Below are positions 169-19,102 of a stretch of DNA of 37,417 nucleotides, piece by piece. Each line of letters starts with the position of its first letter. Within the stretch, counting starts at the first letter, position 1. Under the pieces are notes generated by a model. It had not been told where the DNA came from. It worked only from the letters and a program-made list of their open reading frames with translations, and did no database searches. Origin of the DNA: a virus. Location of the stretch: the UHGV virus genome UHGV-0367149. One strand, written 5' to 3'. The position numbers and the translations under genes are program-made.

Positions 169-187
169 CTATTTGATAAATATTAAA

Positions 188-1483: not shown

Positions 1484-1502
1484 TAGTTAGTGTGGCTTTT
1501 AG

Positions 1503-1754
1503 TCAAGTAAGATGACGTCTTGGTCTCGCTGATGCCTGGCGCTCAATCCAGCGATCAATTTCTTCCAGGTTGTAAAAGCATGGGCTGTTATCCCATGGCA
1601 TACCGTCATGAGCGACATGCTTATATTCCCTTCCTTCCATAAACGATTTTTCCCGGGCCTTTTTTAACGTACCTTTTTTTATTCCTTTCAGCGCAATTAA
1701 CTGCTCTTCGGATACCCATTTGCCGGGAGAGACAATCATGATTACTTCGCTCAT
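1503..1754 (-). CDS. excisionase-like / AlpA-type small DNA-binding protein
   Basis: 83-aa ORF immediately upstream of int on the same strand, the usual xis position. Small basic protein. Assignment is by position and composition only. Confidence 0.5.
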   Translation of the reverse strand: MSEVIMIVSPGKWVSEEQLIALKGIKKGTLKKAREKSFMEGREYKHVAHDGMPWDNSPCFYNLEEIDRWIERQASARPRRHLT

Positions 1755-1826
1755 CGATTTCTTTATCTCTTACATTAGACGAGCGCCGGTTGCAGAATAC
1801 CAGTCACAACCGGCGACAGTTGAACA

Positions 1827-4298
1827 TTAAGAATCAGCCTGACTCGGGATCAGTTTTTGCCAGATAACTGAAACGTATTTTGCCTGGTAACGGGCGTCAT
1901 CAAGTGCATTATGGCGCTCACCTTCGAATGGAATAGCCGTTCTGGCATCGAAGTCTATGGCTTTCCCCAGCTCAACGATTGTGCGTACATCGCGATCGTT
2001 GTAGTAACGCCACGGGCAGGGGATCCCCTGCCGTTCGTATGAACGGCGCAAAATCGTGTTGTCGAAGTTGGCTCCATTTCCCCAGACCTGAACAAAAAAT
2101 TCACCGGAGTTTTCGTCGATAAATTCCCGCAATTGTAACAGTGCATCATCTAACGGGATTTCATCGGTCATAATGGCAGATTGCGCTTCGCGTGATTGCT
2201 TAAGCCACCATTTAATGGTGTCCCGATCAATGACTCCGCCAGCAGTTTCCAGATCGATAGTCTTACTAAATTCCGGTCCCATATCTCCGGTTTGCGGATC
2301 GAAAAATATTGCACCTATTGAGATGATCGGGGCATCAGGATTTTTTCCCATGGTTTCAAGGTCTATCATTAGATGGTCACACGTCCTGCTGGTGGATGTG
2401 ATTTCGTGATGACCGTTCACCTTAATTGAGTGATCTGCCGTCTCGCCAGTTTCATTATCGCTATCGTGATGCTGATTGCCGCCAGCATTCTCCTTGTGTG
2501 GATGTTCAGCGCCTTCCATTTTCTCCGGATCATCTTCCTGAACTTCAACCTGATACTCTTCATCGAATGTTTCTTGGTATGTTGCGTCGCCCATCACCGC
2601 GCCACAATCAGGGCAGTTGCCACCGCCGGTCTGACCGCAGGCGGTGCAGACTTTTTCCACTTCCTGATGCGCCACTGGCTCAGGCTGTTTCGTTTCTGGC
2701 TCGTTTTGTAACGCATTTGGGCTGTTTTGTTCCGCTTTTTGGTAGTTCCGTTCCGATTCATGCTGGTTCTGGTTCACAGAATCGCGGGTCTGGATCCCCT
2801 TAACCCATTTCGGATCATTCGGGTCACTAATCCCTTCAACAAATTCACCACGTGATGCAGCAAGCAACTTATCGGCGTCAGGCTGGCTGATATTGGCTGC
2901 CTGCATAATTTTGTTTACTTCGTCAGCGGTAACTTTTATCGGCTCTGGTTGTTCTGAATCTTCAGCGGTATCTACATTTTGCGGTAAGCCCGTGTATGTG
3001 CCATTTTTTCGGGCAAAATATTCTTCTTTTGTGATTTCAGTGGCGCCAGCAGCCAGTGCCTTATCCAGACCAGAAAGTTTGTTTGCGCGACCGTATTTTT
3101 CTCCGTCCTTATCTGCGAAGAGGAAATAGAACGGCCCCTCACGCTCTACAGATGGTTCAGCTTCCGGCGCGGTTTCATTTTTTGGGATATCAGATACCTC
3201 AGTTTCCACTGCATCAGTTTGTGTTTCTGATGACTGGAGAACATCAACAGTGCCCAGGTCTGTTTCTTCATTCTCAAACACGCCCTTTGTCGTCAGGTAT
3301 TCGCAGATATATTTGTTCAGTGCTATGGGATCTTTGTGAATGTCGATCGGACGCTCACGGACAAGGCCAAAAATAGTTTGGCGGTCGTAGCGAAGGGCAT
3401 CAGGCTGTTTGCGCATTGATGCCGAGATACGCTTCCAGTCTTCGCGGTCGTTGTCGATAACTTCATTTTTTGCCCAGCGATGGATGCTGCCATCAATGTT
3501 TCCGGCATCCACATCACCAGGCCAGAGAGCGTAGGCCAGTTCGTCATCCAGTGTTTTCCATGTCTGCTTGTATTCGCGATGGATGGCAGCAATGACCGGG
3601 CTGATTTTTCCTGTTGAATTTTCAGTGTACTGTTGATTGGCTCTGGCGCGGGCGAGATCAACAACAGACGTGTATTTTCCGGTTTCCTTGCGTTCACCTT
3701 CGCGACGTTTTTTCCAGATGCGCATCTCTGCCTGAATTTCGGGCCATTTAGCACCAGGAATACATTTATGCTTAACCCACCCAATGGCGTGCAACTTAAG
3801 CTCCGGATACATGGCGTTAACTTCTGGCATTTTCATCAACGCTTCAACGATATGTCCGTCGAATGTTGCCATGTCTTCCTGCAACAATTCCTGTGCGCTA
3901 ATAACCATATCAACGGTGATGTTTTCACATGTGTCGAACTTAACCATGACAGCGTTCTGTACTTCAGGGGCCAGCTTGTCAAAAGTGACGTTCATCGGAT
4001 CGGATTCAGTCTCAACCGGGACAAAAGAAGCAGACTCCTCATCCCAGCGGTTTTCCTGCATATATTCAGCATCCCATGAATCGAGGGCAGGGCGGGGTAT
4101 GCCAGGTTTATCCTCGCAGACAATAAATTTATAAGCGCAGTCCTGAGCAGCCGGATAATGTTCCAGGAATTGCCAGTGAAATTTTGCGCGGGCGCGACGT
4201 TCATCACCGGCTTCAATGGCAGTGGCTACAGCGACGGCACCTTCTTCCTTTATTGCCTGTTCGCCCGGAATGGCGGCGCAAATAAAGACTTTACTCAT
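1827..4298 (-). CDS. exodeoxyribonuclease VIII-like protein (RecE/YdfE family) with C-terminal DnaQ-like 3'-5' exonuclease domain
   Basis: 823-aa ORF. Central segment ...PDADKLLAASRGEFVEGISDPNDPKWVKGIQTRD... recalled as RecE-like. C-terminus has DEDDh-type motifs (MIDLETMG..., ...WGNGANFD..., ...HNALDDARY). A CxxC...CxxC zinc ribbon (CTACGQTGGGNCPDCG) lies between them. Confidence 0.75.
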   Translation of the reverse strand: MSKVFICAAIPGEQAIKEEGAVAVATAIEAGDERRARAKFHWQFLEHYPAAQDCAYKFIVCEDKPGIPRPALDSWDAEYMQENRWDEESASFVPVETESDPMNVTFDKLAPEVQNAVMVKFDTCENITVDMVISAQELLQEDMATFDGHIVEALMKMPEVNAMYPELKLHAIGWVKHKCIPGAKWPEIQAEMRIWKKRREGERKETGKYTSVVDLARARANQQYTENSTGKISPVIAAIHREYKQTWKTLDDELAYALWPGDVDAGNIDGSIHRWAKNEVIDNDREDWKRISASMRKQPDALRYDRQTIFGLVRERPIDIHKDPIALNKYICEYLTTKGVFENEETDLGTVDVLQSSETQTDAVETEVSDIPKNETAPEAEPSVEREGPFYFLFADKDGEKYGRANKLSGLDKALAAGATEITKEEYFARKNGTYTGLPQNVDTAEDSEQPEPIKVTADEVNKIMQAANISQPDADKLLAASRGEFVEGISDPNDPKWVKGIQTRDSVNQNQHESERNYQKAEQNSPNALQNEPETKQPEPVAHQEVEKVCTACGQTGGGNCPDCGAVMGDATYQETFDEEYQVEVQEDDPEKMEGAEHPHKENAGGNQHHDSDNETGETADHSIKVNGHHEITSTSRTCDHLMIDLETMGKNPDAPIISIGAIFFDPQTGDMGPEFSKTIDLETAGGVIDRDTIKWWLKQSREAQSAIMTDEIPLDDALLQLREFIDENSGEFFVQVWGNGANFDNTILRRSYERQGIPCPWRYYNDRDVRTIVELGKAIDFDARTAIPFEGERHNALDDARYQAKYVSVIWQKLIPSQADS

Positions 4299-4391
4299 TT
4301 TGTTTTAACCTCATGACAGATTTAAGGATGAACAAATCCCTGCCATTGCTGGCATATAAGAATGAAACCGGATATTTATTACGGAACTGTT

Positions 4392-4583
4392 TTAAAGACC
4401 TGCCGGGATTTCGATATTATCCTGGTGAATAACTTTATCGACCGGGTAACAGTTACCGGGAATTTTCTGTTCGGTTGCTGCAGTCATACACTCCTGCATT
4501 GTCCTGTGAACACTGACTGCAATATCAACTGGCACTCCGGAAACAAGAAAAACTGTCAGAACAAGCGCAAATGCTGAATTCAT
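4392..4583 (-). CDS. ydfD: Qin-prophage small protein YdfD
   Basis: 63-aa product from the internal ATG at 4583 (MNSAFALVLTVFLVSGVPVDIAVSVHRTMQECMTAATEQKIPGNCYPVDKVIHQDNIEIPAGL), recalled as K-12 YdfD. Start overlaps the dicB stop (ATGA). Confidence 0.7.
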   Translation of the reverse strand: MNSAFALVLTVFLVSGVPVDIAVSVHRTMQECMTAATEQKIPGNCYPVDKVIHQDNIEIPAGL

Positions 4584-4768
4584 TGTGCACATCCTTTTGG
4601 CATCAGACGTAAACGAGCCAGCATTGAAACAATGCATATTTTATTTAATAGCTCCCGTTCTTGTTTTCTCTTGTTAATGGCATCTTCAGTAAATACAGGG
4701 TTACTGATAGTGACACCAATTTCAAAACAACCTTCAGACGTATTAACGTTTGGTAATAACGTTTTCAT
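4580..4768 (-). CDS. dicB: cell-division inhibitor DicB
   Basis: 62-aa product from the ATG at 4768 (MKTLLPNVNTSEGCFEIGVTISNPVFTEDAINKRKQERELLNKICIVSMLARLRLMPKGCAQ), matching DicB as recalled. GAGGA Shine-Dalgarno 7 nt upstream. The ORF track gives a longer GTG-initiated frame. Confidence 0.85.
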   Translation of the reverse strand: MKTLLPNVNTSEGCFEIGVTISNPVFTEDAINKRKQERELLNKICIVSMLARLRLMPKGCAQ

Positions 4769-4937
4769 TATCGCGTCCTCAACAATGAATTTTGTGATGC
4801 AGTGCCTGGTGCCTCCAGGTGACGTTAACCAGTTAACAATTAACGTCGGATACAGAGAATCCACCCATAACACTGTTTTTGGTTTTAACTGTTCCGCGTG
4901 CGCTTAGCCGTATTCACCGCATCACAAAATTCACTTT

Positions 4938-4995
4938 AAAAAGGGCGGCAGAGCAGTCACGGAGTAAAACTGATACCGCCAAACGTCACCAGAAA
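4938..4995 (-). ncRNA. dicF: DicF small regulatory RNA (ftsZ-targeting), including its intrinsic terminator
   Basis: Minus-strand sequence UUUCUGGUGACGUUUGGCGGUAUCAGUUUUACUCCGUGACUGCUCUGCCGCCCUUUUU matches DicF as recalled. GC stem plus U-tract at the 3' end. Lies between the ydfB-like gene and dicB, as in Qin. Confidence 0.8.
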
Positions 4996-5254
4996 ATTGA
5001 TAACAGAGGGCGTTGCAGCGGGGTTGTCACTTAAGCGTATGGTCAACCTGACAACCCGGTGTCCTCAACGGGGAAGGAATAACCCCGCCATACTTACCGC
5101 CGCGCCATTTTGCGGGTTGCCACAACCGGAAGCGCACGGTCGAATTAAATTTAACGACACCGTACAGTGAGACGAACTTCGCCGTGCGCTTTCGTGTTGT
5201 GTGCCTGCTTTTAACCACGTCAGGCGAGGTGGTATCCTTAAAATCACCACAGTT

Positions 5255-5830
5255 TTAAGGATTCATTAAGCAATGTCGCAACCACCAATAAATCCGCTTA
5301 AGAACATGAAAATTGATTACTGGTATAAAGCTCTTACAGTTGTTGGCGCAGCGTTGTTTGTCTTTAATGGAACGTCTTTTTTTGACAGATATCCCGTTGT
5401 TCCATTGGGTTTTTTGTCCTCCGGCATCTTTTTTATTGGTTTGGGGGAGTGGATTAATCACCCTCTCATAGTGAGATTTATTGGTCCTGGAGTTTGGACT
5501 CGTGGATATAATCGTTCTTCGTGCGCACTCGGTATCATCTTCGACATACTTGGTTGTTTCCTGATTGTTACAGGAGTCGTCAAGTTCTTCTGATGTAAAA
5601 CCGCAAATGGGGCACGTAACGGGAATTTTGAAAAGCGTTTCTCCGGGTTCCAGAACAAAATTTTCTGCGGTCTGATTTTGCTTCTCATATTTGTGCTCCG
5701 CGTCATTGTGAGAGCACATTCTTATTCTGAGTGCCTGTTTAAACTCACTGAAGCTGAGAGCTTCTTCGCCTTCGGCAAGGCCTTCGAAGTATTCTTCGTA
5801 AGCCTTTTCCATGATTGTGTCGAAATCCAT
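5255..5830 (-). CDS. hypothetical protein at the ydfB/ydfC position of the dicB operon (extended ORF with a CPICG motif)
   Basis: ATG at 5830 lies 1 nt after the ydfA stop with an AGGTGAG Shine-Dalgarno. N-terminus MDFDTIMEKAYEEYFEGLAEGEEALSFSEFKQAL... is acidic and protein-like. The 3' two-thirds is low-complexity and overlaps an antisense ORF, so the true 3' end is uncertain. Confidence 0.4.
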   Translation of the reverse strand: MDFDTIMEKAYEEYFEGLAEGEEALSFSEFKQALRIRMCSHNDAEHKYEKQNQTAENFVLEPGETLFKIPVTCPICGFTSEELDDSCNNQETTKYVEDDTECARRTIISTSPNSRTNKSHYERVINPLPQTNKKDAGGQKTQWNNGISVKKRRSIKDKQRCANNCKSFIPVINFHVLKRIYWWLRHCLMNP

Positions 5831-5831
5831 A

Positions 5832-5987
5832 TCACTCACCTGAGTTTCTTTCCAGCCAGCGACGGGCACCATTTTCGGTTTTAAACGTTTTGCTTTTGGT
5901 ATACGTCATCGCGGTGAACGTGCCGTCCTGGTTGGGGAACACGCCACATACCAGAGATTCGCTGTTGCCAAGATCGATAGTATCCAT
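5832..5987 (-). CDS. ydfA: Qin-prophage small protein YdfA
   Basis: 51-aa product from the ATG at 5987 (MDTIDLGNSESLVCGVFPNQDGTFTAMTYTKSKTFKTENGARRWLERNSGE), recalled as near-identical to K-12 YdfA. Immediately downstream of the DicA-like gene. Confidence 0.72.
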   Translation of the reverse strand: MDTIDLGNSESLVCGVFPNQDGTFTAMTYTKSKTFKTENGARRWLERNSGE

Positions 5988-6179
5988 GCTGACCTCATTT
6001 CCCCTTAACGCCGGGGTAGCGGAACTGTTTGCTGAGAACACCGTGCGGTGTCTTGATGGAGGTAATTTAGTTTTCTCATTATTTTTCGTCAAGGTTTTTT
6101 GATGAGAAAACTCAAGTGTTGGCGCAAGATAAAGCCAATACATTGAAATGTAAGGCTTTAAAATTTTGTGAAGGGATGA

Positions 6180-6587
6180 TTATTGATGCTTGTTGCGTTT
6201 GCGAGCCTCTAATAGCTCGGTGAACAGGCGATTAAAATTCTCAACGCGGGCGCGGAGTTCGCTGAGTTGTGCTTGTTGCTCTGATTTAGGAAGTGCGCGA
6301 TACAAACGCAGCATCTCTAACTCATCTTCCGATAAGTCTAAGGCACTATCGAGTGAAACAGGGGGAGCTGGTGTTTTGTCCTCGTCGCCAAACAGTATCC
6401 AAGTTGGTGAACATTGCAATACCTCGGCGAGGCGATGCAAATTTTGCCCGCGCGGGGCTGTATGGTCACTTTCCCATAATGAAATTGATGAGCCAGATAC
6501 GCCAGCAGCTTTGCTTAAACCGTTTTGACTTAAGCCTACCTGCTTACGTCTTTCTCTAATGCGTTGACCTAAAGTTTTCTCGTTCAT
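6180..6587 (-). CDS. DicA-like HTH (XRE-family) prophage repressor
   Basis: Product from the ATG at 6587 (MNEKTLGQRIRERRKQVGLSQNGLSKAAG...LQCSPTWILFGDEDK...) is colinear with K-12 DicA as recalled, roughly half identical. Divergent from the Cro-like gene. Confidence 0.85.
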   Translation of the reverse strand: MNEKTLGQRIRERRKQVGLSQNGLSKAAGVSGSSISLWESDHTAPRGQNLHRLAEVLQCSPTWILFGDEDKTPAPPVSLDSALDLSEDELEMLRLYRALPKSEQQAQLSELRARVENFNRLFTELLEARKRNKHQ

Positions 6588-6664
6588 ATTTAGATATCTT
6601 AATAACCCTTGACTTGAGATTCCTTGAGTGATTAGCATTGAGAAAACTCAATATTGGAGGTGCG
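6588..6664. promoter_or_regulatory. divergent promoter/operator region between the DicA-like repressor and DicC-like Cro genes
   Basis: 77-bp AT-rich intergenic region between divergently oriented repressor and Cro-like genes. Contains TTGACTTGAGATTCCTTGAGTGATTAGCATTGAGAAAACTCAATATTG with repeated TTGAG/CTCAA half-site-like elements. Operator positions not resolved. Confidence 0.45.
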
Positions 6665-6892
6665 ATGTTTAAATCAGACGTAATTAATTTTTACGGTACG
6701 AAAGCCAAAGTAGCGAAAGCTGCTGGCGTTGACCCATCTGCTGTTTCTCAATGGCAAGAGCTGGTTCCTGAAGGTCGCGCGATGCGTCTACAGGAGGCAT
6801 CTGGCGGCGAGCTTCTGTATGATCCCAAGGTTTATGACGAATATCGTAAGACGAAGCGGGCGGGGCGGTTGAACAATGAAAATCACTCCTGA
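6665..6892 (+). CDS. DicC-like Cro-type small regulator
   Basis: ATG at 6665 with GGAGG Shine-Dalgarno (6656-6660). 75-aa product MFKSDVINFYGTKAKVAKAAGVDPSAVSQWQ...; its C-terminal half resembles DicC as I recall it, but I am unsure of that recollection. Confidence 0.7.
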   Translation: MFKSDVINFYGTKAKVAKAAGVDPSAVSQWQELVPEGRAMRLQEASGGELLYDPKVYDEYRKTKRAGRLNNENHS

Positions 6893-7397
6893 ACAGGCTC
6901 GTGAGGCTCTGGATGCCTGGATATGTCGACCAGGAATGACACAGGAGCAGGCGACGATATTAATCACTGAAGCATTCTGGGCTTTGAAAGAGCGCCCGAA
7001 CATCGATGTTCAGCGTGTCACAGATGAAGGTGGCGCGGTTGATCAGCGAGCACTTGGCGTTAATCGAGTGAAGATATTCGAACGCTGGAAGGCTATCGAC
7101 ACCAGGGATAAGCGTGAAAAGTTCACGGCGCTAGTGCCTGCAATTATGGAGGCTATTCGGATTAATGATTTCAGGTTGTATCGTGAAATTAGTGACGGAA
7201 AAAGCATCACGTACATGATCGCCGGGTTAAACAAAGAATATGGCGATGTGGTGGAGTCCGGACTGCTTTTTGCTGATCCTGCCGTAGTGGATCGTGAAAC
7301 TGACGAACTTATAGAAAAAGCAATTGCTTTCAAACTTGCGTATCGACAGCAATACCAACAAAAAGCTGGATGGAATTATGAGCCTTCTTTTTGCTGA
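6876..7397 (+). CDS. YdaT-family protein (CII-like / putative toxin family)
   Basis: 173-aa ORF whose start overlaps the Cro-like stop. The segment ...VKIFERWKAIDTRDKREKFTALVPAIMEAI... parallels Rac YdaT (...NIYHRWLKGETKTAREKIQKLIPAILAIL...) as recalled. Confidence 0.55.
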   Translation: MKITPEQAREALDAWICRPGMTQEQATILITEAFWALKERPNIDVQRVTDEGGAVDQRALGVNRVKIFERWKAIDTRDKREKFTALVPAIMEAIRINDFRLYREISDGKSITYMIAGLNKEYGDVVESGLLFADPAVVDRETDELIEKAIAFKLAYRQQYQQKAGWNYEPSFC

Positions 7398-8343
7398 ACG
7401 CCCACTGGTTATAAACACACAGCTTGCGATGAAGATTGGCTTAAATGAAGCCATTGTGTTGCAGCAGTTGCATTACTGGTTGAGAGATACCAATTCCGGC
7501 ATGGAATGTGATGGTGTTCGCTGGATTTACAACACAACGGAACAATGGCTGGAACAGTTCCCATTCTGGTCAGAGTCAACGTTAAAGCGCGCGTTTGCAA
7601 GTCTGAAAACGCTGGGGCTTTTGCGTTGTGAAAAGCTCAATAAATCAAAGCGCGATATGACCAATTTCTACACGATCAACTACGGGAGCGAGCTTTTAGA
7701 TGGTGGCAAATTGAGCGAATCCATCGGTTTAAAATGCGCCGCTCCATCAGGTCAAAATGACACGATGGAAGAGGTCAAAATGAAACGCTCCATTGGTTCA
7801 AAACGACCCAATGTCATCGGGTCAAAATGGCCTGATGATCTTACAGAGAATACAACAGAGATTACTACAGAGAATAAAAACACTTTTCGTCCGGAAGCTT
7901 CGCAACCGGACCCGCAGACCGCTGAACAGGATTTTTTAACCCGGAACCCCGACGCGGTTGTGTTTAGTGCGAAAAAACGCCAGTGGGGTAGCAGGGAGGA
8001 TTTGGCGTGTGCGCAGTGGATTTGGGGGCGGATCGTGAACCTTTACGAACAGGCTGCCAGCGACGATGGAGAGATCATGCGACCAAAAGAGCCTAACTGG
8101 ACAGCCTGGGCCAATGACGTGCGCACAATGCGGATGCTGGATGGCAGAAGCCACAGACAAATTTGCGAAATGTTTGGTCGGGTACAGCGAGATCAATTCT
8201 GGGTAAAAAACATCATGAGCCCGTCAAAACTCCGCGAAAAATGGGACGAACTGGTCATCCGCCTGGGACGTTCACCTGTAAAGCGTTGTGTGAATCATAT
8301 TTCTGAACCGGATACAGAAATTCCGCCTGGTTTCAGGGGATAA
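7378..8343 (+). CDS. phage replication initiation (O-like / replisome-organizer) protein
   Basis: ATG at 7378 (the ORF track begins at an upstream TTG at 7324). N-terminal HTH-like region MSLLFAERPLVINTQLAMKIGLNEAIVLQQLHYWL... Sits after the Cro/YdaT genes, as YdaU does in Rac. Confidence 0.5.
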   Translation: MSLLFAERPLVINTQLAMKIGLNEAIVLQQLHYWLRDTNSGMECDGVRWIYNTTEQWLEQFPFWSESTLKRAFASLKTLGLLRCEKLNKSKRDMTNFYTINYGSELLDGGKLSESIGLKCAAPSGQNDTMEEVKMKRSIGSKRPNVIGSKWPDDLTENTTEITTENKNTFRPEASQPDPQTAEQDFLTRNPDAVVFSAKKRQWGSREDLACAQWIWGRIVNLYEQAASDDGEIMRPKEPNWTAWANDVRTMRMLDGRSHRQICEMFGRVQRDQFWVKNIMSPSKLREKWDELVIRLGRSPVKRCVNHISEPDTEIPPGFRG

Positions 8344-8383
8344 GTGTTGATTTTAGGGTATAAAGTAATGTTCAGGAGGACTT

Positions 8384-8803
8384 GTGGCAAAAGTTTTTAC
8401 ACAAGAAGAGCGGGAAAAAATTAAAGGGCAGGTGGTGGAACTCGTACGCCAGAGTGGGCGCGAGACGTTACGACAACTGGAAGCTAAAACTGGGGCAACA
8501 AGATATCTGATGAGCGTTCTGGCCAGAGAGCTGGTTGCCAGTGGCGATGTATACAGCTCTGGTTACGGGTTATTCCCGTCTGAACAGGCGCGTAAGGACT
8601 GGCAAAACGCCCGCAAAAAACTCTCGAGGGCAAAGGTGAAGAAACCTGCTGTGGTTGATCCGGACCTTATCTGGTCATTACCTGACGGAGAAATACGTCG
8701 CTACGACAGTCGTCTAAACATAATCTGTCGCGAGTGCCGGAAGGCAAGGAGAAGCAGGCTATTGTTAACACCAAGCTGTAATGTCCCCTTTGAACCATTC
8801 TAA
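8384..8803 (+). CDS. hypothetical protein; 3' end abuts or enters the IS left end
   Basis: GTG start with AGGAGGA Shine-Dalgarno. 139-aa product with no recognised family. Stop lies only 33 nt before the transposase ATG, so the C-terminus may be IS-derived. Confidence 0.4.
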   Translation: MAKVFTQEEREKIKGQVVELVRQSGRETLRQLEAKTGATRYLMSVLARELVASGDVYSSGYGLFPSEQARKDWQNARKKLSRAKVKKPAVVDPDLIWSLPDGEIRRYDSRLNIICRECRKARRSRLLLTPSCNVPFEPF

Positions 8804-10540
8804 AATGTCCCCAGACAATTCTCTGGGGGATTTTTCATGATCAAAGAGACTGTTACGATGAGTCATAAGGAACTCCACCGACTTCAGATTATTCAGGAGT
8901 CAATTAATCGACATATTACTCAGGAACAAGCTGCGGCACGCATTGGCATTTCTATTCGGCAGGTTAAACGTCTGGTGCAACGGTATAGAAATGAAGGGCC
9001 TTCTGGTCTGGTTTCCCACCGACGTGGAAAGCGTCCTAATAATTCCTTTTCTACTGAATTCAGAGCAACAGTAATTTCACTCCTCAAAGGCCGTTACGCT
9101 GATTTTGGACCTACGTTTGCGTGCGAAAAATTGCGCGAGATACACGGTTTATCTTTATCCGTTGAAACTCTCAGAAAGTGGATGATAGAAGAGGGGTTAT
9201 GGCGTGAACGCCGTCGTAAAATTGCCCGTATATATCAACGCCGCATGCGACGACCATCTTACGGTGAACTGATCCAGATTGATGGCTCACCTCATGACTG
9301 GTTTGAAAATCGAGGCCCCAGATGTACACTGATCGTTTTCATTGATGATGCCACCAGTGCGTTGATGGCGTTGCGTTTTGTGCCTGCTGAAACAACCCGG
9401 GCTTACATGGAAACCCTCCGGGGTTACCTTAATGATCATGGCGTACCGCTCGCTCTCTACTCTGATAGACACAGTATATTCAGGGTAAATAACCCAGAGC
9501 GGGAAGGTGAGCTGACCCAGTTCACTCGTGCGATAAAGACACTGGGCATCGAGCCAATCCATGCCAACAGCCCGCAGGCAAAAGGGCGGGTAGAGCGCGC
9601 CAATCAGACACTACAGGACAGGCTGGTCAAAGAAATGCGGCTTCAGAATATCAGTGATATTGAAACAGCAAATGCATGGTTGCCGACCTTTATTGAAGCC
9701 TATAACAACCGGTTCGCTACGTCGCCTCATACTACTGATAATGCTCATCTTGATGTGCACCATTCTGAAGAGGAACTGGGTTATATCTTCAGCCTACAGG
9801 CGAAGCGCGTTCTGTCTAAAAATCTCACTTTCCAGTACAAAAGCAGTGCGTTTCAGGTACGCAGTGAGGGCCGGGGATATCGACTTAGGCATTCGGTTGT
9901 TACTGTATGTGAGAACTTTGACGGTGAAATTAACGTTCTGTATGACGGGAAAGCGCTGGGCTGGGAAAAGTATGTTGATGGCCCGGAGCCTATACCACTG
10001 GATGATGAAAAGAGTGTCCATGAACGAGTGGATAATGCCCGTATTGATTTACGCTCAAAATACTATGTTAAATCTAAAGCTGACCATCCCTGGCTTACGC
10101 GCCGAACGCAAAGTCATCAGCAAGTTAAGCCCCCGAAGTTACCTAAAAAGAAGCCTGATCCCGATAAAATAGATTGAAACCAAGATCGATTCGGTTGAGT
10201 GCATATCCATTCATAGGGTAGATTCTTAAGTCGCGTTTCTGGTGTTCATTTTCGGGTGGTTTGTTACTTGTTTTACCGGGGATATGCCAGAAACGCGCTG
10301 AGTCAGTCTGGGCGGTGCGCGTAATGAGGCGTTATGGTAAATAGCCTATGCTAATGTCCGCTAAGAGCAAGAAGCGGAAGTTGGCAGTTTTGTGGACTGT
10401 CCCCACAAAAGTGACTACAGAAATAGTTGCAATTCATAATTGATCATGGGTTGTCAGTTAAACTCGTGGCGATTTAAATAGACTAATTGGGAGGGCGTCC
10501 ATTACTTATATCTTGTAATGTTAACTATCAGAAATGATAC
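8780..10540 (+). mobile_element. insertion sequence (single-ORF DDE transposase, IS481/ISNCY-like); ends not resolved
   Basis: Transposase ORF 8837-10177 plus about 350 bp of non-phage-like flank. I could not identify terminal inverted repeats or a target-site duplication by eye, so the boundaries are approximate. Confidence 0.4.
8837..10177 (+). CDS. IS transposase (N-terminal HTH, rve/DDE integrase core)
   Basis: 446-aa ORF. N-terminal HTH (...AAARIGISIRQVKRLVQRY...). Candidate DDE triad in ...LIQIDGSPHDW..., ...ALYSDRHSIF..., ...AKGRVERANQTLQ... Confidence 0.85.
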   Translation: MIKETVTMSHKELHRLQIIQESINRHITQEQAAARIGISIRQVKRLVQRYRNEGPSGLVSHRRGKRPNNSFSTEFRATVISLLKGRYADFGPTFACEKLREIHGLSLSVETLRKWMIEEGLWRERRRKIARIYQRRMRRPSYGELIQIDGSPHDWFENRGPRCTLIVFIDDATSALMALRFVPAETTRAYMETLRGYLNDHGVPLALYSDRHSIFRVNNPEREGELTQFTRAIKTLGIEPIHANSPQAKGRVERANQTLQDRLVKEMRLQNISDIETANAWLPTFIEAYNNRFATSPHTTDNAHLDVHHSEEELGYIFSLQAKRVLSKNLTFQYKSSAFQVRSEGRGYRLRHSVVTVCENFDGEINVLYDGKALGWEKYVDGPEPIPLDDEKSVHERVDNARIDLRSKYYVKSKADHPWLTRRTQSHQQVKPPKLPKKKPDPDKID

Positions 10541-10613
10541 AAAGATAATATGTCTTTAAAGAAAAGGCTGATGGCGAAAAGTGGCCCGATGAGGGCCACA
10601 ATACGGCTGTCAC

Positions 10614-10946
10614 TTAGACGTAAATATCAATGGTGCCAGCGGTATTTGTATCGTCTTTTTTCTCTTCTTTTTTATCAGGCTGAACTGTCGCGTCTTTATT
10701 CTTTTTCTCTGCCTGCTGCCTTAACAACTGCTCCAGTTGAGCCCTGAGGCTTTCAATTTGCTTCTGTACCAATGCAGCCATTTCTTTTTTCTGCTGTGTC
10801 GTCATCCCCTCTTCCGATGAGATTTTCCCAAGCTTTTCAGTCAACACCTGAATTTGTCTTGTGATTTTGGCTATTTCTGATGTTCCTTCCGGGGCGGAGT
10901 TGTTTGAAATAACGGTTGAGGTATTTCCCTGAATTGTGACAGACAT
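10614..10946 (-). CDS. flxA: FlxA (FliA-dependent Qin-prophage protein)
   Basis: 110-aa ORF MSVTIQGNTSTVISNNSAPEGTSEIAKITRQIQVLTEKLGK... matching K-12 FlxA as recalled. AAGGAG Shine-Dalgarno. Preceded by a sigma28-type promoter. Confidence 0.85.
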   Translation of the reverse strand: MSVTIQGNTSTVISNNSAPEGTSEIAKITRQIQVLTEKLGKISSEEGMTTQQKKEMAALVQKQIESLRAQLEQLLRQQAEKKNKDATVQPDKKEEKKDDTNTAGTIDIYV

Positions 10947-10969
10947 AGATTTCTCCTTTTAAAAAAGCA

Positions 10970-10996
10970 CTATCGGCATGCACAAAAAAATCTTTA
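10970..10996 (-). promoter_or_regulatory. sigma28 (FliA) promoter of flxA
   Basis: On the minus strand: TAAAGATT, an 11-nt spacer, then GCCGATAG, against the sigma28 consensus TAAAGTTT-N11-GCCGATAA. Positioned about 25 nt upstream of the flxA ATG. Confidence 0.65.
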
Positions 10997-11148
10997 ATCG
11001 TATTTCTTGTGTCATTAATTGTTTGATGTTCAGATTGTTTTCCTCGCGGGCTGGCGCGCCTCAGAAAGTAAAGCTTGTTGACAGGGGTAAACGTTCGGCA
11101 ATAATTTTCTGCCGCATGCGGGTGTTGCATAAAACGTGCTACGTTCCT

Positions 11149-11454
11149 TTATCGACAGGTCAGGTCACCGCTCACCCGCCGACGAGAAAGCAACACTGAC
11201 ATGCTAAAGCAAAAAATAGATGAATAAGTTGAGTTGTGCATATGTAGCCTGACCGTCACAAAGTATATGGTGTCTGTACCAGTAAGATGATGGCCGGACT
11301 CTTTAAAAGCGAGCTGACCTGCACAATACAGGATGGACTTAGCAATGGCTGCTCCTGGCACAAAGCGGACAGTGATCACCGTTCTTACGACTACTTTCTG
11401 ACTTCCTTCGTGACTTGCCCTAAGCATGTTGTAGTGCGATACTTGTAATGACAT
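11149..11454 (-). CDS. YdfV-like hypothetical protein
   Basis: 101-aa ORF between flxA and relB, the position and length of K-12 ydfV. Sequence is not strongly protein-like. Confidence 0.4.
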   Translation of the reverse strand: MSLQVSHYNMLRASHEGSQKVVVRTVITVRFVPGAAIAKSILYCAGQLAFKESGHHLTGTDTIYFVTVRLHMHNSTYSSIFCFSMSVLLSRRRVSGDLTCR

Positions 11455-11478
11455 TTGTAATTACAAGAGGTGTAAGAC

Positions 11479-11718
11479 ATGGGTAGCATTAACCTGCGTA
11501 TTGACGATGAACTTAAAGCGCGTTCTTACGCCGCGCTTGAAAAAATGGGTGTAACTCCTTCTGAAGCGCTTCGTCTCATGCTCGAGTATATCGCTGACAA
11601 TGAACGCTTGCCGTTCAAACAGACACTCCTGAGTGATGAAGATGCTGAACTTGTGGAGATAGTGAAAGAACGGCTTCGTAATCCTAAGCCAGTACGTGTG
11701 ACGCTGGATGAACTCTGA
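11479..11718 (+). CDS. relB: RelB antitoxin
   Basis: 79-aa ORF MGSINLRIDDELKARSYAALEKMGVTPSEALRLMLEYIADNERLPFKQTLLSDEDAELVEIVKERLRNPKPVRVTLDEL, matching K-12 RelB as recalled. Confidence 0.92.
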   Translation: MGSINLRIDDELKARSYAALEKMGVTPSEALRLMLEYIADNERLPFKQTLLSDEDAELVEIVKERLRNPKPVRVTLDEL

Positions 11719-12005
11719 TGGCGTATTTTCTGGATTTTGACGAGCGGGCACTAAAGGAATGGCGAAAGCTGGGCTCGACGGTACGTGAACAGTTGAAAAA
11801 GAAGCTGGTTGAAGTACTTGAGTCACCCCGGATTGAAGCAAACAAGCTCCGTGGTATGCCTGATTGTTACAAGATTAAGCTCCGGTCTTCAGGCTATCGC
11901 CTTGTATACCAGGTTATAGACGAGAAAGTTGTCGTTTTCGTGATTTCTGTTGGGAAAAGAGAACGCTCGGAAGTATATAGCGAGGCGGTCAAACGCATTC
12001 TCTGA
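11718..12005 (+). CDS. relE: RelE mRNA-interferase toxin
   Basis: 95-aa ORF MAYFLDFDERALKEWRKLGSTVREQLKKKLVEVLESPRIEANKLRGMPDCYKIKLRSSGYRLVYQVIDEKVVVFVISVGKRERSEVYSEAVKRIL. Start overlaps the relB stop. Confidence 0.92.
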   Translation: MAYFLDFDERALKEWRKLGSTVREQLKKKLVEVLESPRIEANKLRGMPDCYKIKLRSSGYRLVYQVIDEKVVVFVISVGKRERSEVYSEAVKRIL

Positions 12006-12076
12006 ACCAAAGCATGACATCTCTGTTTCGCACCGAAGGTGACACTTCTGCTTTGCGTTGACAGGAGAAGCAGGCT

Positions 12077-12232
12077 ATGAAGCAGCAAAAGGCGATGTTA
12101 ATCGCCCTGATCGTCATCTGTTTAACCGTCATAGTGACGGCACTGGTAACGAGGAAAGACCTCTGCGAGGTACGAATCCGAACCGGCCAGACGGAGGTCG
12201 CTGTCTTCACAGCTTACGAACCTGAGGAGTAA
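12077..12232 (+). CDS. hokD: HokD (RelF) Hok-family membrane toxin
   Basis: Not in the ORF track (51 aa). ATG at 12077 to TAA at 12230-12232 encodes MKQQKAMLIALIVICLTVIVTALVTRKDLCEVRIRTGQTEVAVFTAYEPEE, matching HokD as recalled. Directly downstream of relE. Confidence 0.88.
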   Translation: MKQQKAMLIALIVICLTVIVTALVTRKDLCEVRIRTGQTEVAVFTAYEPEE

Positions 12233-12299
12233 GAGACCCGGCGGGGGAGAAATCCCTCGCCACCTCTGATGTGGCAGGCATCCTCAACGCACCCGCACT

Positions 12300-12330
12300 T
12301 AACCCGCTTCGGCGGGTTTTTGTTTTTATT
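12300..12330 (+). terminator. intrinsic terminator after relB-relE-hokD
   Basis: AACCCGCTTCGGCGGGTTTTTGTTTTTATT: GC-rich hairpin followed by a T-tract. Confidence 0.65.
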
Positions 12331-12448
12331 TTCAACGCGTTTGAAGTTCTGGACGGTGCCGGAATAGAATCAAAAATACTTAAGTAGCGCGCAGGGATAA
12401 GAGGGATGGTCCCTTAAAGGGGAGAGCTAATTATCCGGAAGGATTCTG

Positions 12449-12700
12449 ATGATGAACATCGAAGAACTGCGTAAAATTTTTTGTGAAGATGGCCTCTATG
12501 CTGTGTGCGTTGAAAATGGAAATCTTGTTAGTCATTACCGCATTATGTGTTTGCGAAAGAATGGGGCTGCGTTAATTAATTTTGTGGATGCTCGGGTCAC
12601 GGACGGATTTATCTTGCGCGAAGGTGAGTTTGTCACTTCATTACAGGCATTGAAAGAGATCGGAATAAAAGCTGGCTTTTCTGCTTTTTCAGGAGAATAA
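12449..12700 (+). CDS. rem: Rem (Qin-prophage small protein)
   Basis: 83-aa ORF downstream of hokD, the position and length of K-12 rem. Sequence identity is recalled only weakly. Confidence 0.6.
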   Translation: MMNIEELRKIFCEDGLYAVCVENGNLVSHYRIMCLRKNGAALINFVDARVTDGFILREGEFVTSLQALKEIGIKAGFSAFSGE

Positions 12701-12766
12701 ACTCATCTACAATCTTGCGCGGGGCTGAACTCCCGCTGAGTAACACCGTGCCACCGGAGAAAACCG

Positions 12767-13045
12767 ATGGCACGCAACGCAAAATATTACAATTCTGATA
12801 ATTCGCCCGTTCTTGCCTGCACGCACGGGCGGTATTCTCACGCATTCAAGTCTGAATGGTTCCAGCACCCTCCATGCACTGCAGAACAGGCCGAATGGCT
12901 GATTCATTCTTACCGCAGGCGCGGGTTCGAGGTTAAGAAAGCTCTCAGTCTCGACTATCGGCACTGGATAATCTCTGTCAGGCTGCCTTATTCCGAACGC
13001 CCACCACGTGCGTCCCGCACTTTCCAGCAACGGATCTGGAGGTAA
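12767..13045 (+). CDS. hypothetical 92-aa protein, translationally coupled to ydfU
   Basis: ATG at 12767 preceded by GGAG. Its TAA stop (13043-13045) sits inside the GGAGG Shine-Dalgarno of the downstream GTG start. No recognised family. Confidence 0.4.
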   Translation: MARNAKYYNSDNSPVLACTHGRYSHAFKSEWFQHPPCTAEQAEWLIHSYRRRGFEVKKALSLDYRHWIISVRLPYSERPPRASRTFQQRIWR

Positions 13046-15496: not shown

Positions 15497-15796
15497 AAAA
15501 ATTCCTTAATACTGATAACTTGGCGCACTATACACACGTTCCTGAAGAAAGCTATAGTTTTTTGATGGGGTTGAAGATGGCTGGATGTCTAAAATAAACA
15601 TTGCTTCATATGTTCAACTATGCGTTAATGATTGCGTCGGTTTGAAGAACAGACGATATACGAAGTAGTTTACTAAAGCAGTTCTCATTTCAGGTGTTAT
15701 TCACTTATTCCTTCTTTGAGTCTCTCCAATTAAGTACGAAGTCGTTTCTGTTATGCAAACCATTTATGCCGAAAGGCTCAAGTTAAGGAATGTAGA

Positions 15797-16012
15797 ATGT
15801 CAAATAAAATGACTGGTTTAGTAAAATGGTTTAACGCTGATAAAGGTTTCGGCTTTATTTCTCCTGTTGATGGTAGTAAAGATGTGTTTGTGCATTTTTC
15901 TGCGATTCAGAATGATAATTATCGAACCTTATTTGAAGGTCAAAAGGTTACCTTCTCTATAGAGAGTGGTGCTAAAGGTCCTGCAGCAGCAAATGTCATC
16001 ATTACTGATTAA
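15797..16012 (+). CDS. cspB: cold-shock protein CspB
   Basis: 71-aa [74 protein letters not shown] with canonical RNP1/RNP2 motifs. Divergent from cspF, as in Qin. Confidence 0.85.
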
Positions 16013-16294
16013 AATTCATCGCTCGTCTGTATACGATAACGAAGAAGGCTGATGCCTGAGTAGAGATACGGACAGAGTAGTGAATATTGGATCTCTTTAA
16101 TAAAAAGTAAGGAGGTCCAATACATGAAACAATGGCTAGCATATTTGGCAAAATCTTAATCAGGAAAAGTATGCTAACCATTGTGGTGAAGTGCAGGTTT
16201 GCTGCATGAATAGTTTTACAGCAGAAGCTAACTGCTGGCATGGCAAAACAAAGTGCGTAAGTGGATGACTCCCACAAAAAGCACCACAATCTCA

Positions 16295-18321: not shown

Positions 18322-18683
18322 GGTAATATTAAATCGGAACATTTACATCGCGGAATGTAAAATTTAAATAAAAAGGACTCTTCCATGAGCCAAAATTCCT
18401 GAAATCTTAAGGGTAAGATAAAAGGTCTTAATCAGAATGACACGTTTTATTAATAAATAAAGCTATTCTTTCATTGCTGTGTTTTTCTTTACAAAAGTAA
18501 TCCTTGCCATGGGTGGTTAATCATGCGTTAATGGTGTTCTGGTTTGTTACAAATTTATCTGAAGCAGTCATTGTTATAATTTTATTATTTGTACCTCTTG
18601 AGATTTCCTTGTTGGTTTTTCTCTCTGATATTTTTTTTCGGACCATTCTGCCCAAGGGCTAATTTCTTCAAAAGGTAATAATT

Positions 18684-18896
18684 ATGTCTAACAAAATGAC
18701 TGGTTTAGTGAAATGGTTTAACCCTGAAAAAGGTTTTGGTTTCATCACGCCGAAAGATGGCAGCAAAGATGTGTTTGTCCATTTCTCAGCAATTCAGAGC
18801 AACGATTTCAAAACATTAACTGAGAATCAGGAAGTTGAATTTGGTATTGAGAACGGACCTAAAGGTCCTGCCGCTGTTCATGTAGTGGCGCTTTGA
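18684..18896 (+). CDS. cspI: cold-shock protein CspI
   Basis: 70-aa [73 protein letters not shown]. Long upstream untranslated region (18322-18683), typical of cold-shock genes. Confidence 0.85.
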
Positions 18897-19102
18897 GGTA
18901 GACAATATTACAAACCATATTCACTTTAGATGCCCGTGTTGTCATGGTTCCCAGTATAGAACATCATCTTTTGATGTTTCTGACATGAATCCTTTCGGGG
19001 CAAAATGTATCTTTTGTAAATCAATGATGATTACATTTGATAATATTTCACAATACTTAAATGCCAGCCGTCTGTCGTTGGATTTAAAAAAGTGAAAATG
19101 AA

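What the first reader, a model, noticed from the sequence alone, without database searches (positions are those of the whole stretch)
8384..10613. IS transposase occupies the position of the helicase-loader and nin region, so the prophage is probably replication-defective
After the O-like initiator gene there is no DnaC/P-like loader and no nin-region genes. Instead a 139-aa orphan ORF runs into an IS transposase gene, and phage sequence resumes at flxA. The morphogenesis module is otherwise lambda-complete, so the element looks like a structurally intact prophage crippled in its early region (no identifiable N antiterminator, no loader, no Bet/RecT annealase). The IS ends and target duplication could not be identified by eye, so it is unclear whether this is a simple insertion or an insertion plus deletion.
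Basis: partly seen in the sequence, partly recalled or inferred. Interest (0 to 1): 0.45.

Follow-up and report, generated by a model that had tools for sequence, protein, structure and literature searches.

The report
relBE transposon inside prophage hok gene
The "IS" is the left end of a 3.3-kb transposon that carries flxA and the relBE toxin-antitoxin genes and sits in the start of the phage's hok toxin gene; an unrelated small deletion lies next to it, and nothing shows that the prophage cannot replicate.

Summary

**What the element is**
- The transposase (8837-10177) belongs to the IS1202 family, ISEsa1 type.
- The mobile unit is not a 1.6-kb IS ending before flxA. It is a 3301-bp transposon, 8763-12063, with ends 5'-TGT…ACA-3' and 19/26 inverted repeats.
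- It carries tnp, flxA, ydfV, relB and relE.
- It has a perfect 15-bp target duplication, GGAGAAGCAGGCTAT, at 8748-8762 and 12064-12078.
- It is inserted at the ribosome-binding site and start codon of the phage hok gene (hokD).
- Empty sites exist in phages HannyBb and mEp460_ev081. The duplication changes with the hok allele in independent insertions on plasmids.

**The deletion**
- A 1.6-2.0-kb deletion at a 10-nt microhomology (8734-8743) removed the DUF977 C-terminus, accessory genes and the sok/hok leader.
- The junction lies outside the transposon end.

**Replication**
- No helicase loader was lost. Window 135-8743 is gaplessly 98.7% identical to phage HannyBb, which also has only the O-like initiator followed by DUF977.
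- A replication defect is therefore unsupported.

The same comparison places the E. coli K-12 relBE-hokD genes in a relic of this transposon. I found no paper describing it.

The parts
7378..8343 (+). O-like replication initiator. The annotated start gives 321 aa; the mechanical ORF starts at 7324. It is intact, and its last 21 residues are 16/21 identical to the C-terminus of host DnaT.
   Evidence: phrog_391 'replication initiation O-like', E = 1.2e-92, plus partial matches to DnaD-like helicase-loader and replisome-organizer PHROGs. DnaT tail match. 97-99% identical to the initiator of phages HannyBb, PhiR42_1 and mEp460_ev081.
7708..7837 (.). Five iteron-like direct repeats spaced about 23 bp apart inside the O-like gene. 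This is the probable origin of replication, and it is intact.
   Evidence: the repeat finder family D1. Placing an origin inside the initiator gene, as in lambda, is an inference.
8384..8803 (+). DUF977 ('Ren-like', LygF/YdaW-type) gene. Codons 1-119 are native. The last 19 codons are read from the hok leader and the transposon end.
   Evidence: Pfam PF06163 matches profile positions 1-115 of 134. phrog_142. Alignment A1 shows loss of the conserved C-terminus SEVMQRILAFYQ.
8734..8743 (.). Deletion junction at the 10-nt microhomology GTGCCGGAAG. Relatives have GTGCCGGAAG in DUF977 and GTGCCGAAAG in the hok leader.
   Evidence: blastn and direct sequence comparison with L001 and with HannyBb. 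The same junction occurs in 105 of 5426 complete E. coli genomes.
8744..8762 (+). Last 19 nt of the hok mRNA leader (Shine-Dalgarno region). The left copy of the 15-bp target duplication, GGAGAAGCAGGCTAT, is at 8748-8762.
   Evidence: In relatives a full-length Rfam sok (RF01794) match ends exactly here. Flank alignment. Target duplication.
8763..12063 (+). The complete transposon, 3301 bp, with ends 5'-TGT…ACA-3'.
   Evidence: Empty sites in HannyBb and mEp460_ev081, and an occupied site in PhiR42_1. The duplication covaries with the hok allele in independent insertions. The same ends occur in 17 further loci.
8763..8788 (+). Left terminal inverted repeat, TGTTAACACCAAGCTGTAATGTCCCC. A second AATGTCCCC motif lies at 8804-8812.
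   Evidence: 19/26 match to the right end. [quoted passage not shown]
8837..10177 (+). Intact transposase gene. It is 446 aa from the first Met and 439 aa from the second Met at 8858.
   Evidence: NF033594 ISNCY family transposase, E = 1.7e-139. Annotated as 'IS1202-like element ISEsa1 family transposase' in RefSeq. It is a pseudogene in L001, L002, L003, L007 and K-12.
8763..10382 (+). Conserved left module (tnp plus about 200 bp). This is the only part shared with versions of the transposon that carry other cargo.
   Evidence: blastn against L008, L015, L017 and L024 ends at 10368-10382. Plasmid matches end at 10382.
10614..10946 (-). flxA, a cargo gene of this version of the transposon.
   Evidence: Pfam PF14282. 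It lies inside the inverted repeats, and the identical 3301-bp unit sits in a different hok allele on an Enterobacter plasmid, L006.
11149..11454 (-). ydfV, a cargo gene. Its 5' stub belongs to the conserved right module.
   Evidence: Annotation of relatives. Right-module homology starts at 11351.
11479..12005 (+). relB (11479-11718) and relE (11718-12005), a type II toxin-antitoxin pair present at the right end of every copy examined.
   Evidence: tblastn finds RelB and RelE at 93-100% identity in all 21 delimited elements.
12038..12063 (+). Right terminal inverted repeat, GGTGACACTTCTGCTTTGCGTTGACA.
   Evidence: Identical in K-12 Qin.
12064..12078 (+). Right copy of the 15-bp target duplication, GGAGAAGCAGGCTAT. 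It supplies the Shine-Dalgarno sequence and the first two bases of the hokD ATG.
12077..12232 (+). hokD (relF) coding region. The transposon separates it from its own sok/mok leader and leaves it immediately downstream of relBE.
   Evidence: ORF. Uninterrupted sok-hok in HannyBb and mEp460_ev081.

Best explanation
Two separate events shaped this region of a Qin/mEp460-type lambdoid prophage.

**Event 1: transposon insertion.** An IS1202-family (ISEsa1-type) transposon inserted into the translation-initiation region of the phage's hok/sok locus and duplicated 15 bp. It has tnp at its left end, variable cargo in the middle (here flxA-ydfV) and relBE at its right end. The insertion splits the sok/mok/hok leader from the hok coding region. 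The hok coding region now lies directly downstream of relBE, with a duplicated Shine-Dalgarno sequence in front of it.

**Event 2: deletion.** Later, in the lineage of this window, a 1.6-2.0-kb deletion between two 10-nt near-repeats fused DUF977 codon 119 to the last 19 nt of the hok leader. It removed the DUF977 tail, a variable set of accessory genes and sok. The transposase did not make this deletion, because the transposon end and the left target duplication are untouched.

**Replication.** The replication module consists of the O-like initiator and iterons inside its gene. It is the same as in isolated phages that encode no helicase loader, so this phage type presumably uses host DnaB-DnaC. 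The prophage is therefore not demonstrably replication-defective.

**Shown:** the element boundaries, the target duplication, the empty sites, the deletion junction and the collinearity with phages.

**Inferred:** the order of the two events, the use of the host loader, and the dispensability of the DUF977 C-terminus.
For: **Boundaries and target duplication**
- The 15-mer is single in HannyBb and mEp460_ev081. It is duplicated around the element in the window and in PhiR42_1.
- In three different hok alleles the duplicated 15-mer differs, yet both copies are always identical: GGAGAAGCAGGCTAT, GGAGAAGAAGGCCAT and GGAGAAGTCAGCTAT.
- Twenty of the 21 delimited elements, from 11 genera, have perfect 10-16-bp duplications (13-16 bp in all but one); the exception is the tnp-truncated L083 copy, whose 15-bp repeats differ at 2 positions. 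All 21 have tnp on the left and relBE on the right, at lengths of 2.6-12.8 kb.
- A 62%-identical plain IS in Hahella has the same termini and 15-16-bp duplications.
- The inverted repeats match at 19/26.

**Target is hok**
- A full Rfam sok match abuts the left end in L001, L004 and L006.

**Deletion**
- Window 6761-8743 and 8734-13000 map to L001 2462-4444 and 6424-10691, with a 10-nt overlap.
- The window keeps the G variant of the DUF977 repeat copy, so the crossover lies at 8741-8743. That is 20 nt outside the left inverted repeat.

**No loader lost**
- Window 135-8743 is 98.7% identical and gapless to HannyBb 24078-32685.
- The annotations of HannyBb, PhiR42_1, mEp460_ev081 and mEp460_4F5 show the O-like gene followed by DUF977 or a PerC-like gene and no loader.
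- Iterons are present.
- The initiator has matches to DnaD-like loader PHROGs and a DnaT-like tail.
Against: - The window's DUF977 protein has lost a C-terminal motif that is conserved in all five relatives aligned. Its function is unknown, and if it acts in replication the prophage could be impaired.
- I could not find papers confirming that HannyBb and PhiR42_1 form plaques. Their viability rests on their GenBank records as complete phage genomes.
- I did not check the rest of the prophage for other lesions.
- The preference for hok could partly reflect selection or spread rather than active targeting.
Confidence: 0.8

Rival explanations
1. A simple IS inserted into the early-right operon and, with an associated deletion, removed the helicase loader and nin genes. 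The result is a structurally intact but replication-dead prophage.
For: No loader ORF lies between 8343 and 12063. A deletion next to the element is real. DUF977 is truncated.
Against: - The deleted interval in the closest relatives holds a methyltransferase (often a pseudogene), DUF7167, QueH, a KwaB-like gene or hypothetical genes, plus sok. It never holds a loader.
- Phage genomes with the same initiator have no loader anywhere in their annotation.
- The element is a 3.3-kb transposon located in hok, not in a replication gene.
Confidence: 0.08
2. The deletion is a transposase-mediated adjacent deletion (intramolecular transposition) starting from the left end of the element.
For: The deletion abuts the element. 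In another genome (L003) everything to the left is also missing close to the same place.
Against: - The junction is 20-29 nt outside the left inverted repeat.
- The left target duplication and 19 nt of hok leader are retained.
- A 9/10-nt microhomology spans the junction.
- In L003 the hok leader is likewise still present to the left of the element, so that deletion did not start at the element's end either.
Confidence: 0.05
3. DUF977 is a replication accessory factor of this phage type, sitting in the position of lambda P/ren. Its C-terminal replacement cripples replication even though no loader was lost.
For: DUF977 always directly follows the initiator, or the DnaC-like gene, in many E. coli prophages. 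Its C-terminal motif is conserved among close relatives.
Against: - PHROGs files it as a 'Ren-like exclusion protein' in the moron category.
- mEp460_4F5 has a 68%-identical initiator followed by a PerC-like gene and no DUF977.
- Natural C-termini vary in length from 132 to 140 aa.
- The deletion allele persists in 105 complete genomes of varied origin.
Confidence: 0.12
4. The association with hok is not target-site choice. It comes from one old insertion that spread among hok loci by homologous recombination, or from selection for insertions that inactivate hok.
For: Several loci share the same hok allele and may represent a single event. Relatives in Hahella and Scandinavium insert at unrelated sites.
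Against: - About ten different hok alleles, including a hokE-like one, carry the element within 10 nt of the ATG.
- Each has its own matching duplication, and one insertion is in the opposite orientation.
- Left flanks that look only about 70-80% alike by eye (not computed) lie next to an element that is 99.3-99.6% identical. That pattern does not fit homologous exchange.
Confidence: 0.2

Closest known systems
ISEsa1 and the IS1202 family, formerly the ISNCY IS1202 group (Harmer & Hall 2023, PMC10132070)
   Same: - The transposase family matches: NF033594, and RefSeq names it an ISEsa1 family transposase.
- From the second Met the protein is 439 aa, the size listed for ISEsa1.
- The conserved left module of 1606-1620 bp matches the listed ISEsa1 length of 1609 bp.
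- The ends are 5'-TGT…ACA-3' and the inverted repeats are imperfect and about 26 bp long.
- Other family members are known to be site-specific (for dif/pdif sites) and to make long duplications of 16-28 bp.
   Different: - The paper lists ISEsa1 as having no detectable target duplication.
- Here the functional unit extends to a distant right end after relBE, carries 1-11 kb of cargo, makes 13-16-bp duplications and is mostly found at hok start regions rather than dif sites.
- I could not retrieve the ISfinder entry, so the claim that it describes only the left module is an inference from sizes.
Toxin-antitoxin pairs that are integral parts of transposons, for example in the Tn3 family (recalled from memory, not checked here)
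   Same: A type II TA pair travels with the transposition module in every copy.
   Different: The transposase family is different, the TA pair sits at the end opposite to tnp, and the target is itself a toxin gene (hok).
The relBEF (relB-relE-hokD) locus of the E. coli K-12 Qin cryptic prophage
   Same: The gene order is identical (ydfW-flxA-ydfV-relB-relE-hokD-rem-ydfU) at 99.5% identity. K-12 keeps the right inverted repeat and the right copy of the duplication.
   Different: K-12 lacks the left end and most of tnp. ydfX is a fragment of the YdaT-like gene fused to the 3' end of tnp (ydfW). The window has an intact transposase and both ends.
The lambda O/P replication module with its nin region
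   Same: The initiator gene contains iterons and sits after cro and a cII-like gene. Accessory genes lie between the replication genes and Q.
   Different: This lineage has no P/DnaC/DnaB-type gene. The initiator has DnaD-like segments and a DnaT-like C-terminal tail. The 'nin' interval is filled by DUF977, variable cargo, hok/sok, rem and the DUF968-HNH protein.
Chromosomal hok loci of E. coli inactivated by IS elements (hokA, hokC and hokE with IS150/IS186; recalled from memory)
   Same: A hok locus is disrupted by a mobile element.
   Different: Those IS elements lie downstream of the hok reading frame. Here the insertion is at the Shine-Dalgarno sequence and ATG, and it places hok behind relBE.

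Membership tests
IS1202 family (ISEsa1 subgroup) | A large DDE transposase (394-507 aa) of the ISNCY_2 type with N-terminal HTH domains | tested here: met
   NF033594, E = 1.7e-139, 465 bits against a cutoff of 250. Pfam finds HTH_28/29/32/23 and rve_3.
IS1202 family (ISEsa1 subgroup) | Imperfect terminal inverted repeats of about 22-29 bp, with outer ends 5'-TGT and ACA-3' | tested here: met
   8763-8788 against 12038-12063 matches at 19/26, with TGT…ACA ends. The Hahella relative has the same termini.
IS1202 family (ISEsa1 subgroup) | A target-site duplication of a length characteristic for the subgroup (3-5 bp, 16-28 bp, or none reported for ISEsa1) | tested here: met
   Perfect 13-16-bp duplications (15 bp in the window) in 19 of the 21 delimited elements, plus one of 10 bp (L029); none was scored in tnp-truncated L083. 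Also 15-16 bp in 9 Hahella copies. This is close to the long-duplication subgroup and contradicts the 'none detected' entry for ISEsa1 (PMC10132070).
IS1202 family (ISEsa1 subgroup) | A compact IS of 1.3-1.75 kb, or a 'transporter IS' with one extra ORF | tested here: not met
   The units delimited by inverted repeats and duplications are 2.6-12.8 kb and hold 4 to more than 12 passenger genes. By structure this is a transposon, not a plain IS.
IS1202 family (ISEsa1 subgroup) | A second internal transposase-binding repeat near each end | tested here: inconclusive
   On the left, AATGTCCCC occurs at 8780-8788 and again at 8804-8812. On the right there are only degenerate copies (GTGTCACC and ATGTCATG on the complementary strand).
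Lambda-type O/P replication module | An origin-binding initiator with iterons inside its own gene | tested here: met
   phrog_391, E = 1.2e-92. Five repeats spaced about 23 bp apart at 7708-7837.
Lambda-type O/P replication module | A phage-encoded helicase loader or helicase (P, DnaC-like or DnaB-like) next to the initiator | tested here: not met
   None is present in the window. None is annotated in HannyBb, PhiR42_1, mEp460_ev081 or mEp460_4F5. The absence is a lineage trait and not a lesion.
hok/sok type I toxin-antitoxin locus | A sok antisense gene and hok leader contiguous with the hok ORF | tested here: not met
   There is no Rfam sok match in the window. Relatives have sok to the left of the transposon, and HannyBb has an uninterrupted locus. 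In the window only 19 nt of leader and the hokD ORF remain.

The most novel reading that the evidence does not exclude
ISEsa1-type elements of Enterobacteriaceae are not small IS elements without target duplications. They are cargo transposons with tnp at one end and relBE at the other. They make duplications of about 15 bp and insert preferentially at the Shine-Dalgarno/ATG region of hok genes on phages and F-like plasmids.

Each such insertion uncouples hok from Sok antisense control and places it behind relBE. The classical relB-relE-hokD (relF) operon of E. coli K-12 would then be a relic of one such event. The same vehicle moves nickel and chromate resistance clusters on plasmids.
Probability: 0.7. 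Interest if true: 0.65.

Novelty: new variant of a known kind. Interest (0 to 1): 0.5.

Why it matters
**For the original question:** the prophage should not be scored as replication-dead because a loader gene is missing. This phage lineage never has one.

**More broadly:**
- The analysis gives true ends and a target duplication for an IS type that curators list as having none.
- It shows that relBE, a model toxin-antitoxin system, is part of a mobile unit.
- It offers an origin for the odd relBE-hokD operon.
- It points to hok start regions as a preferred landing site. That would be a second kind of site preference in the IS1202 family, after dif sites.
- It identifies a vehicle for metal-resistance clusters in the leading regions of F-like plasmids.

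Tried and rejected
1. **Inverted repeats around 8700-10620.** A search by eye and with the repeat finder found nothing convincing, because the right end lies 1.7 kb further on.
2. **Left end at 8735.** I first took this as the left end because megablast homology in other genomes starts there. I rejected it when flank alignment and Rfam showed that 8735-8762 is conserved hok leader.
3. **Right end at 10382.** I first took this as the right end because the nickel-resistance plasmids diverge there. I rejected it because that point is the boundary between the tnp module and the cargo.
4. **The right repeat as native hok leader.** I considered this because GCTTTGCG also occurs in my recollection of the R1 hok leader. 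I rejected it because the sequence is identical in all copies whatever the hok allele, and because it matches the Hahella IS terminus.
5. **Literature.** Searches for a described relBE/hok-targeting transposon, and for phages HannyBb and PhiR42_1, found nothing relevant.
6. **DnaT preprimosome paper (PMC13377028).** It did not say what the extreme C-terminal tail of DnaT binds, so the DnaT-like tail of the initiator remains only a lead.
Full report
**What is in the window**

The window is a lambdoid prophage of the E. coli Qin/mEp460 type. It is 100% identical to part of the chromosome of strain VTB97432v.

From left to right the early region contains:
- integrase, excisionase and an 823-aa exonuclease;
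- DicF RNA;
- a cI-like repressor (6180-6638, minus strand);
- a P22-Cro-like gene (6638-6892);
- a YdaT/cII-like gene (6876-7397);
- an O-like initiator (7378-8343);
- a DUF977 ORF (8384-8803);
- a transposase (8837-10177);
- flxA, ydfV, relB, relE and hokD;
- rem, a DUF968-HNH protein and Q.

The 139-aa "orphan" is a DUF977 / "Ren-like" protein that matches only positions 1-115 of the 134-position Pfam profile.

**Finding the true ends of the mobile element**

The transposase is an ISNCY/IS1202-family protein (NF033594, E = 1.7e-139). RefSeq names it "IS1202-like element ISEsa1 family transposase".

No inverted repeats bracket 8700-10620. Comparison with other records explains why.

*Left side.*
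- In every related locus, on chromosomes and on F-like plasmids, the DNA directly left of the element is a full-length match to Rfam sok (RF01794, 100-107 bits). That is the 5' half of a hok/sok locus.
- The hok leader runs through its Shine-Dalgarno sequence to …GGAGAAGCAGGCTAT.
- The element then begins with 5'-TGTTAACACCAAGCTGTAATGTCCCC at window position 8763.

*Right side.*
- The sequence GGTGACACTTCTGCTTTGCGTTGACA (12038-12063) lies 30 nt after the relE stop codon.
- It is a 19/26 inverted match to the left end.
- It is followed by a second copy of GGAGAAGCAGGCTAT and then the G that completes the hokD ATG.

**Four lines of evidence that this is a real transposon with a 15-bp target duplication**

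1. *Empty sites.* Phages HannyBb and mEp460_ev081 have an uninterrupted sok-hok locus with one copy of the 15-mer. Phage PhiR42_1 and the window have two copies flanking the insert.
2. *Covariation with the target.* In an Enterobacter plasmid (L006) both copies read GGAGAAGAAGGCCAT. In a Phytobacter plasmid (L008) both read GGAGAAGTCAGCTAT. Each matches the local hok allele.
3. *Survey across species.* A scan of one genome per species found the same termini in 17 further loci. These came from Klebsiella, Enterobacter, Citrobacter, Kluyvera, Leclercia, Pantoea, Scandinavium, Shigella and other genera. Twenty of the 21 delimited elements have perfect duplications, 13-16 bp long in all but one (10 bp in L029); the tnp-truncated L083 copy has a 15-bp repeat with 2 mismatches.
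4. *A plain IS relative.* An IS in Hahella whose transposase is 62% identical is present in at least 11 copies. It has nearly the same termini (TGTTAGCCC…GGGTTGACA) and perfect 15-16-bp duplications.

**Structure of the transposon**

In the window the element is 8763-12063 (3301 bp).

Every delimited copy has tnp at the left end and relB-relE next to the right end, while the middle varies:
- flxA-ydfV in the 3.3-kb version (the window, Qin-type prophages and Enterobacter plasmids);
- about 11 kb of ncr nickel and chr chromate resistance genes in L008;
- other cargo of 1-6 kb elsewhere.

Only two modules are shared:
- window 8763 to about 10372-10382;
- window 11351-12063.

The left module is 1606-1620 bp long and its transposase is 439 aa from the second Met. 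These are the sizes listed for ISEsa1: 1609 bp, 439 aa, inverted repeats of 15/22 and "no TSD detected" (Harmer & Hall 2023, PMC10132070). I infer that the catalogued ISEsa1 is only the left module, which would explain the missing duplication. I could not retrieve the ISfinder sequence to confirm this.

**Target preference**

Among elements whose transposase is at least 86% identical to the window's, about ten different hok alleles carry the insertion within 10 nt of the hok ATG. One of these is a hokE-like gene, and one insertion is in the opposite orientation.

Four insertions are at unrelated sites. The Scandinavium/Dryocola (about 80% identical) and Hahella relatives show no link to hok.

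A site preference is likely and has a precedent in this family, whose other members target dif sites. It has not been demonstrated experimentally.

**The deletion**

Compared with the closest relatives that carry the transposon (L001, L002, PhiR42_1), the window lacks 1980 bp. Compared with HannyBb it lacks 1610 bp.

The junction is a 10-nt near-repeat:
- GTGCCGGAAG in DUF977 codons 116-119;
- GTGCCGAAAG in the hok leader.

The window has the G variant followed by hok-leader sequence. The crossover therefore lies at 8741-8743, which is 20 nt outside the transposon end, and the left target duplication is intact. This is a short-homology deletion, not a transposase-made one.

The deletion removed:
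- the last 20 codons of DUF977, including the conserved SEVMQRILAFYQ motif;
- sok and most of the hok leader;
- an interval that varies between relatives. It holds a methyltransferase (frameshifted in L001 and L002), DUF7167 and a hypothetical gene in some. It holds QueH and a KwaB-like gene in L007, and a methyltransferase fragment and QueH in HannyBb.

The same junction occurs in 105 of 5426 complete E. coli genomes, including O26:H11 strain 11368.

**Is the prophage replication-defective?**

I found no evidence for it.

- Window 135-8743 spans everything from the integrase to the deletion junction. It aligns without gaps at 98.7% identity to phage HannyBb.
- HannyBb, PhiR42_1 (which carries the transposon), mEp460_ev081 and the more distant mEp460_4F5 all lack a P/DnaC/DnaB-type gene. 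Their O-like gene is followed directly by DUF977 or a PerC-like gene.
- mEp460 was sequenced in a lambdoid-phage study that confirmed both lytic and lysogenic growth for its 26 focus phages. I did not check that mEp460 is on that list (PMC9836094).
- The initiator is intact and contains five iteron-like repeats.
- The initiator matches the PHROG "replication initiation O-like" over its whole length and matches "DnaD-like helicase loader" PHROGs in part.
- It ends in a 21-residue tail that is 16/21 identical to the C-terminus of the host primosome protein DnaT.

The most economical reading is that this initiator recruits host DnaB-DnaC itself. That is an inference.

The absence of N and of Bet/RecT is shared with HannyBb and is likewise a lineage trait.

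The one possible lesion is the altered DUF977 tail. PHROGs classes this family as a moron-type "Ren-like exclusion protein", and a phage with a related initiator does without it. I give a DUF977-dependent defect about 12%.

**Consequences and comparison with what is known**

The insertion separates hok from its Sok-controlled leader. It places the hok ORF, with a duplicated Shine-Dalgarno sequence, directly after relE.

E. coli K-12 Qin has the same right end, right duplication and hokD. It has lost the left end and most of tnp: ydfX is a fragment of the YdaT-like gene fused to the 3' end of tnp, which is annotated as ydfW. The K-12 relB-relE-hokD arrangement is therefore a relic of this transposon.

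Searches of the paper library found no description of this. The library does not include many subscription journals, so prior description cannot be excluded.

**Verdict**

- The idea of an insertion plus a deletion is right.
- The claims of a lost loader and a replication-dead prophage are not supported.
- As originally stated, the finding is ordinary.
- What lies behind it is a relBE-bearing cargo transposon associated with hok, which appears to resolve the "no TSD" status of ISEsa1. This is a new variant of a known kind and of moderate interest.

Noticed in passing
window 12064-12232; L093 (K-12 MG1655) 2223-4740: The E. coli K-12 relB-relE-hokD locus lies in a relic of the same transposon. 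The right inverted repeat and right duplication are intact. The left end and most of tnp are deleted. ydfX is a fragment of the YdaT-like gene fused to the 3' end of tnp, which is annotated as ydfW.
   Followed up: yes
L008 (Phytobacter plasmid NZ_AP018757.1) 1516-14358: A 12.8-kb version of the transposon sits in the hok locus of an IncF plasmid leading region, next to psiB-psiA. It carries ncrABCY nickel resistance and chrBA chromate resistance between tnp and relBE.
   Followed up: partly
L033-L043, L060 (Hahella sp. SMD15-11): At least 11 copies of a plain 1449-bp IS whose transposase is 62% identical. It has the same TGT…GTTGACA termini and perfect 15-16-bp target duplications at unrelated sites.
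   Followed up: yes
L029 (Leclercia) about 11554 onward; L028 (Citrobacter) about 9927: In L029 a second, related left end begins directly after the right duplication of the first element, which suggests a tandem insertion at the same hok site. In L028 the element sits at the same hok 15-mer in the opposite orientation, and no right end was found within 10 kb.
   Followed up: no
window 8281-8343 (last 21 codons of the O-like gene): The C-terminal tail of the initiator, VKRCVNHISEPDTEIPPGFRG, is 16/21 identical to the C-terminus of host DnaT (PDB 2ru8, 9zbt). This may be mimicry of a primosome contact. What the DnaT tail binds was not found in the paper consulted.
   Followed up: partly
window 4943-4994 (minus strand); 15636-16028; 18538-18923: A DicF antisense RNA (Rfam, 76.7 bits) lies in the early-left arm. 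Two cspA-type thermoregulator leaders lie in front of cold-shock genes in the late region.
   Followed up: no
between DUF977 and sok/hok in relatives: L001 4549-5892, L007 2107-4620, L009 8507-9943, L011 8897-10246: This interval varies between relatives and looks like a hot spot for accessory genes. It holds a methyltransferase, DUF7167, QueH, a KwaB-like (Kiwa) protein or a 449-aa reverse-strand ORF. It is the interval deleted in the window.
   Followed up: partly
window 10178-10382: About 200 bp after the tnp stop codon are conserved in all versions of the transposon. Fragments of this stretch also match small plasmids (H61, H90). Its function is unknown.
   Followed up: no
HannyBb 37137-38731, compared with window about 14902: HannyBb has a 1.6-kb stretch downstream of Q, annotated as many tiny ORFs, that is absent from the window.
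   Followed up: no
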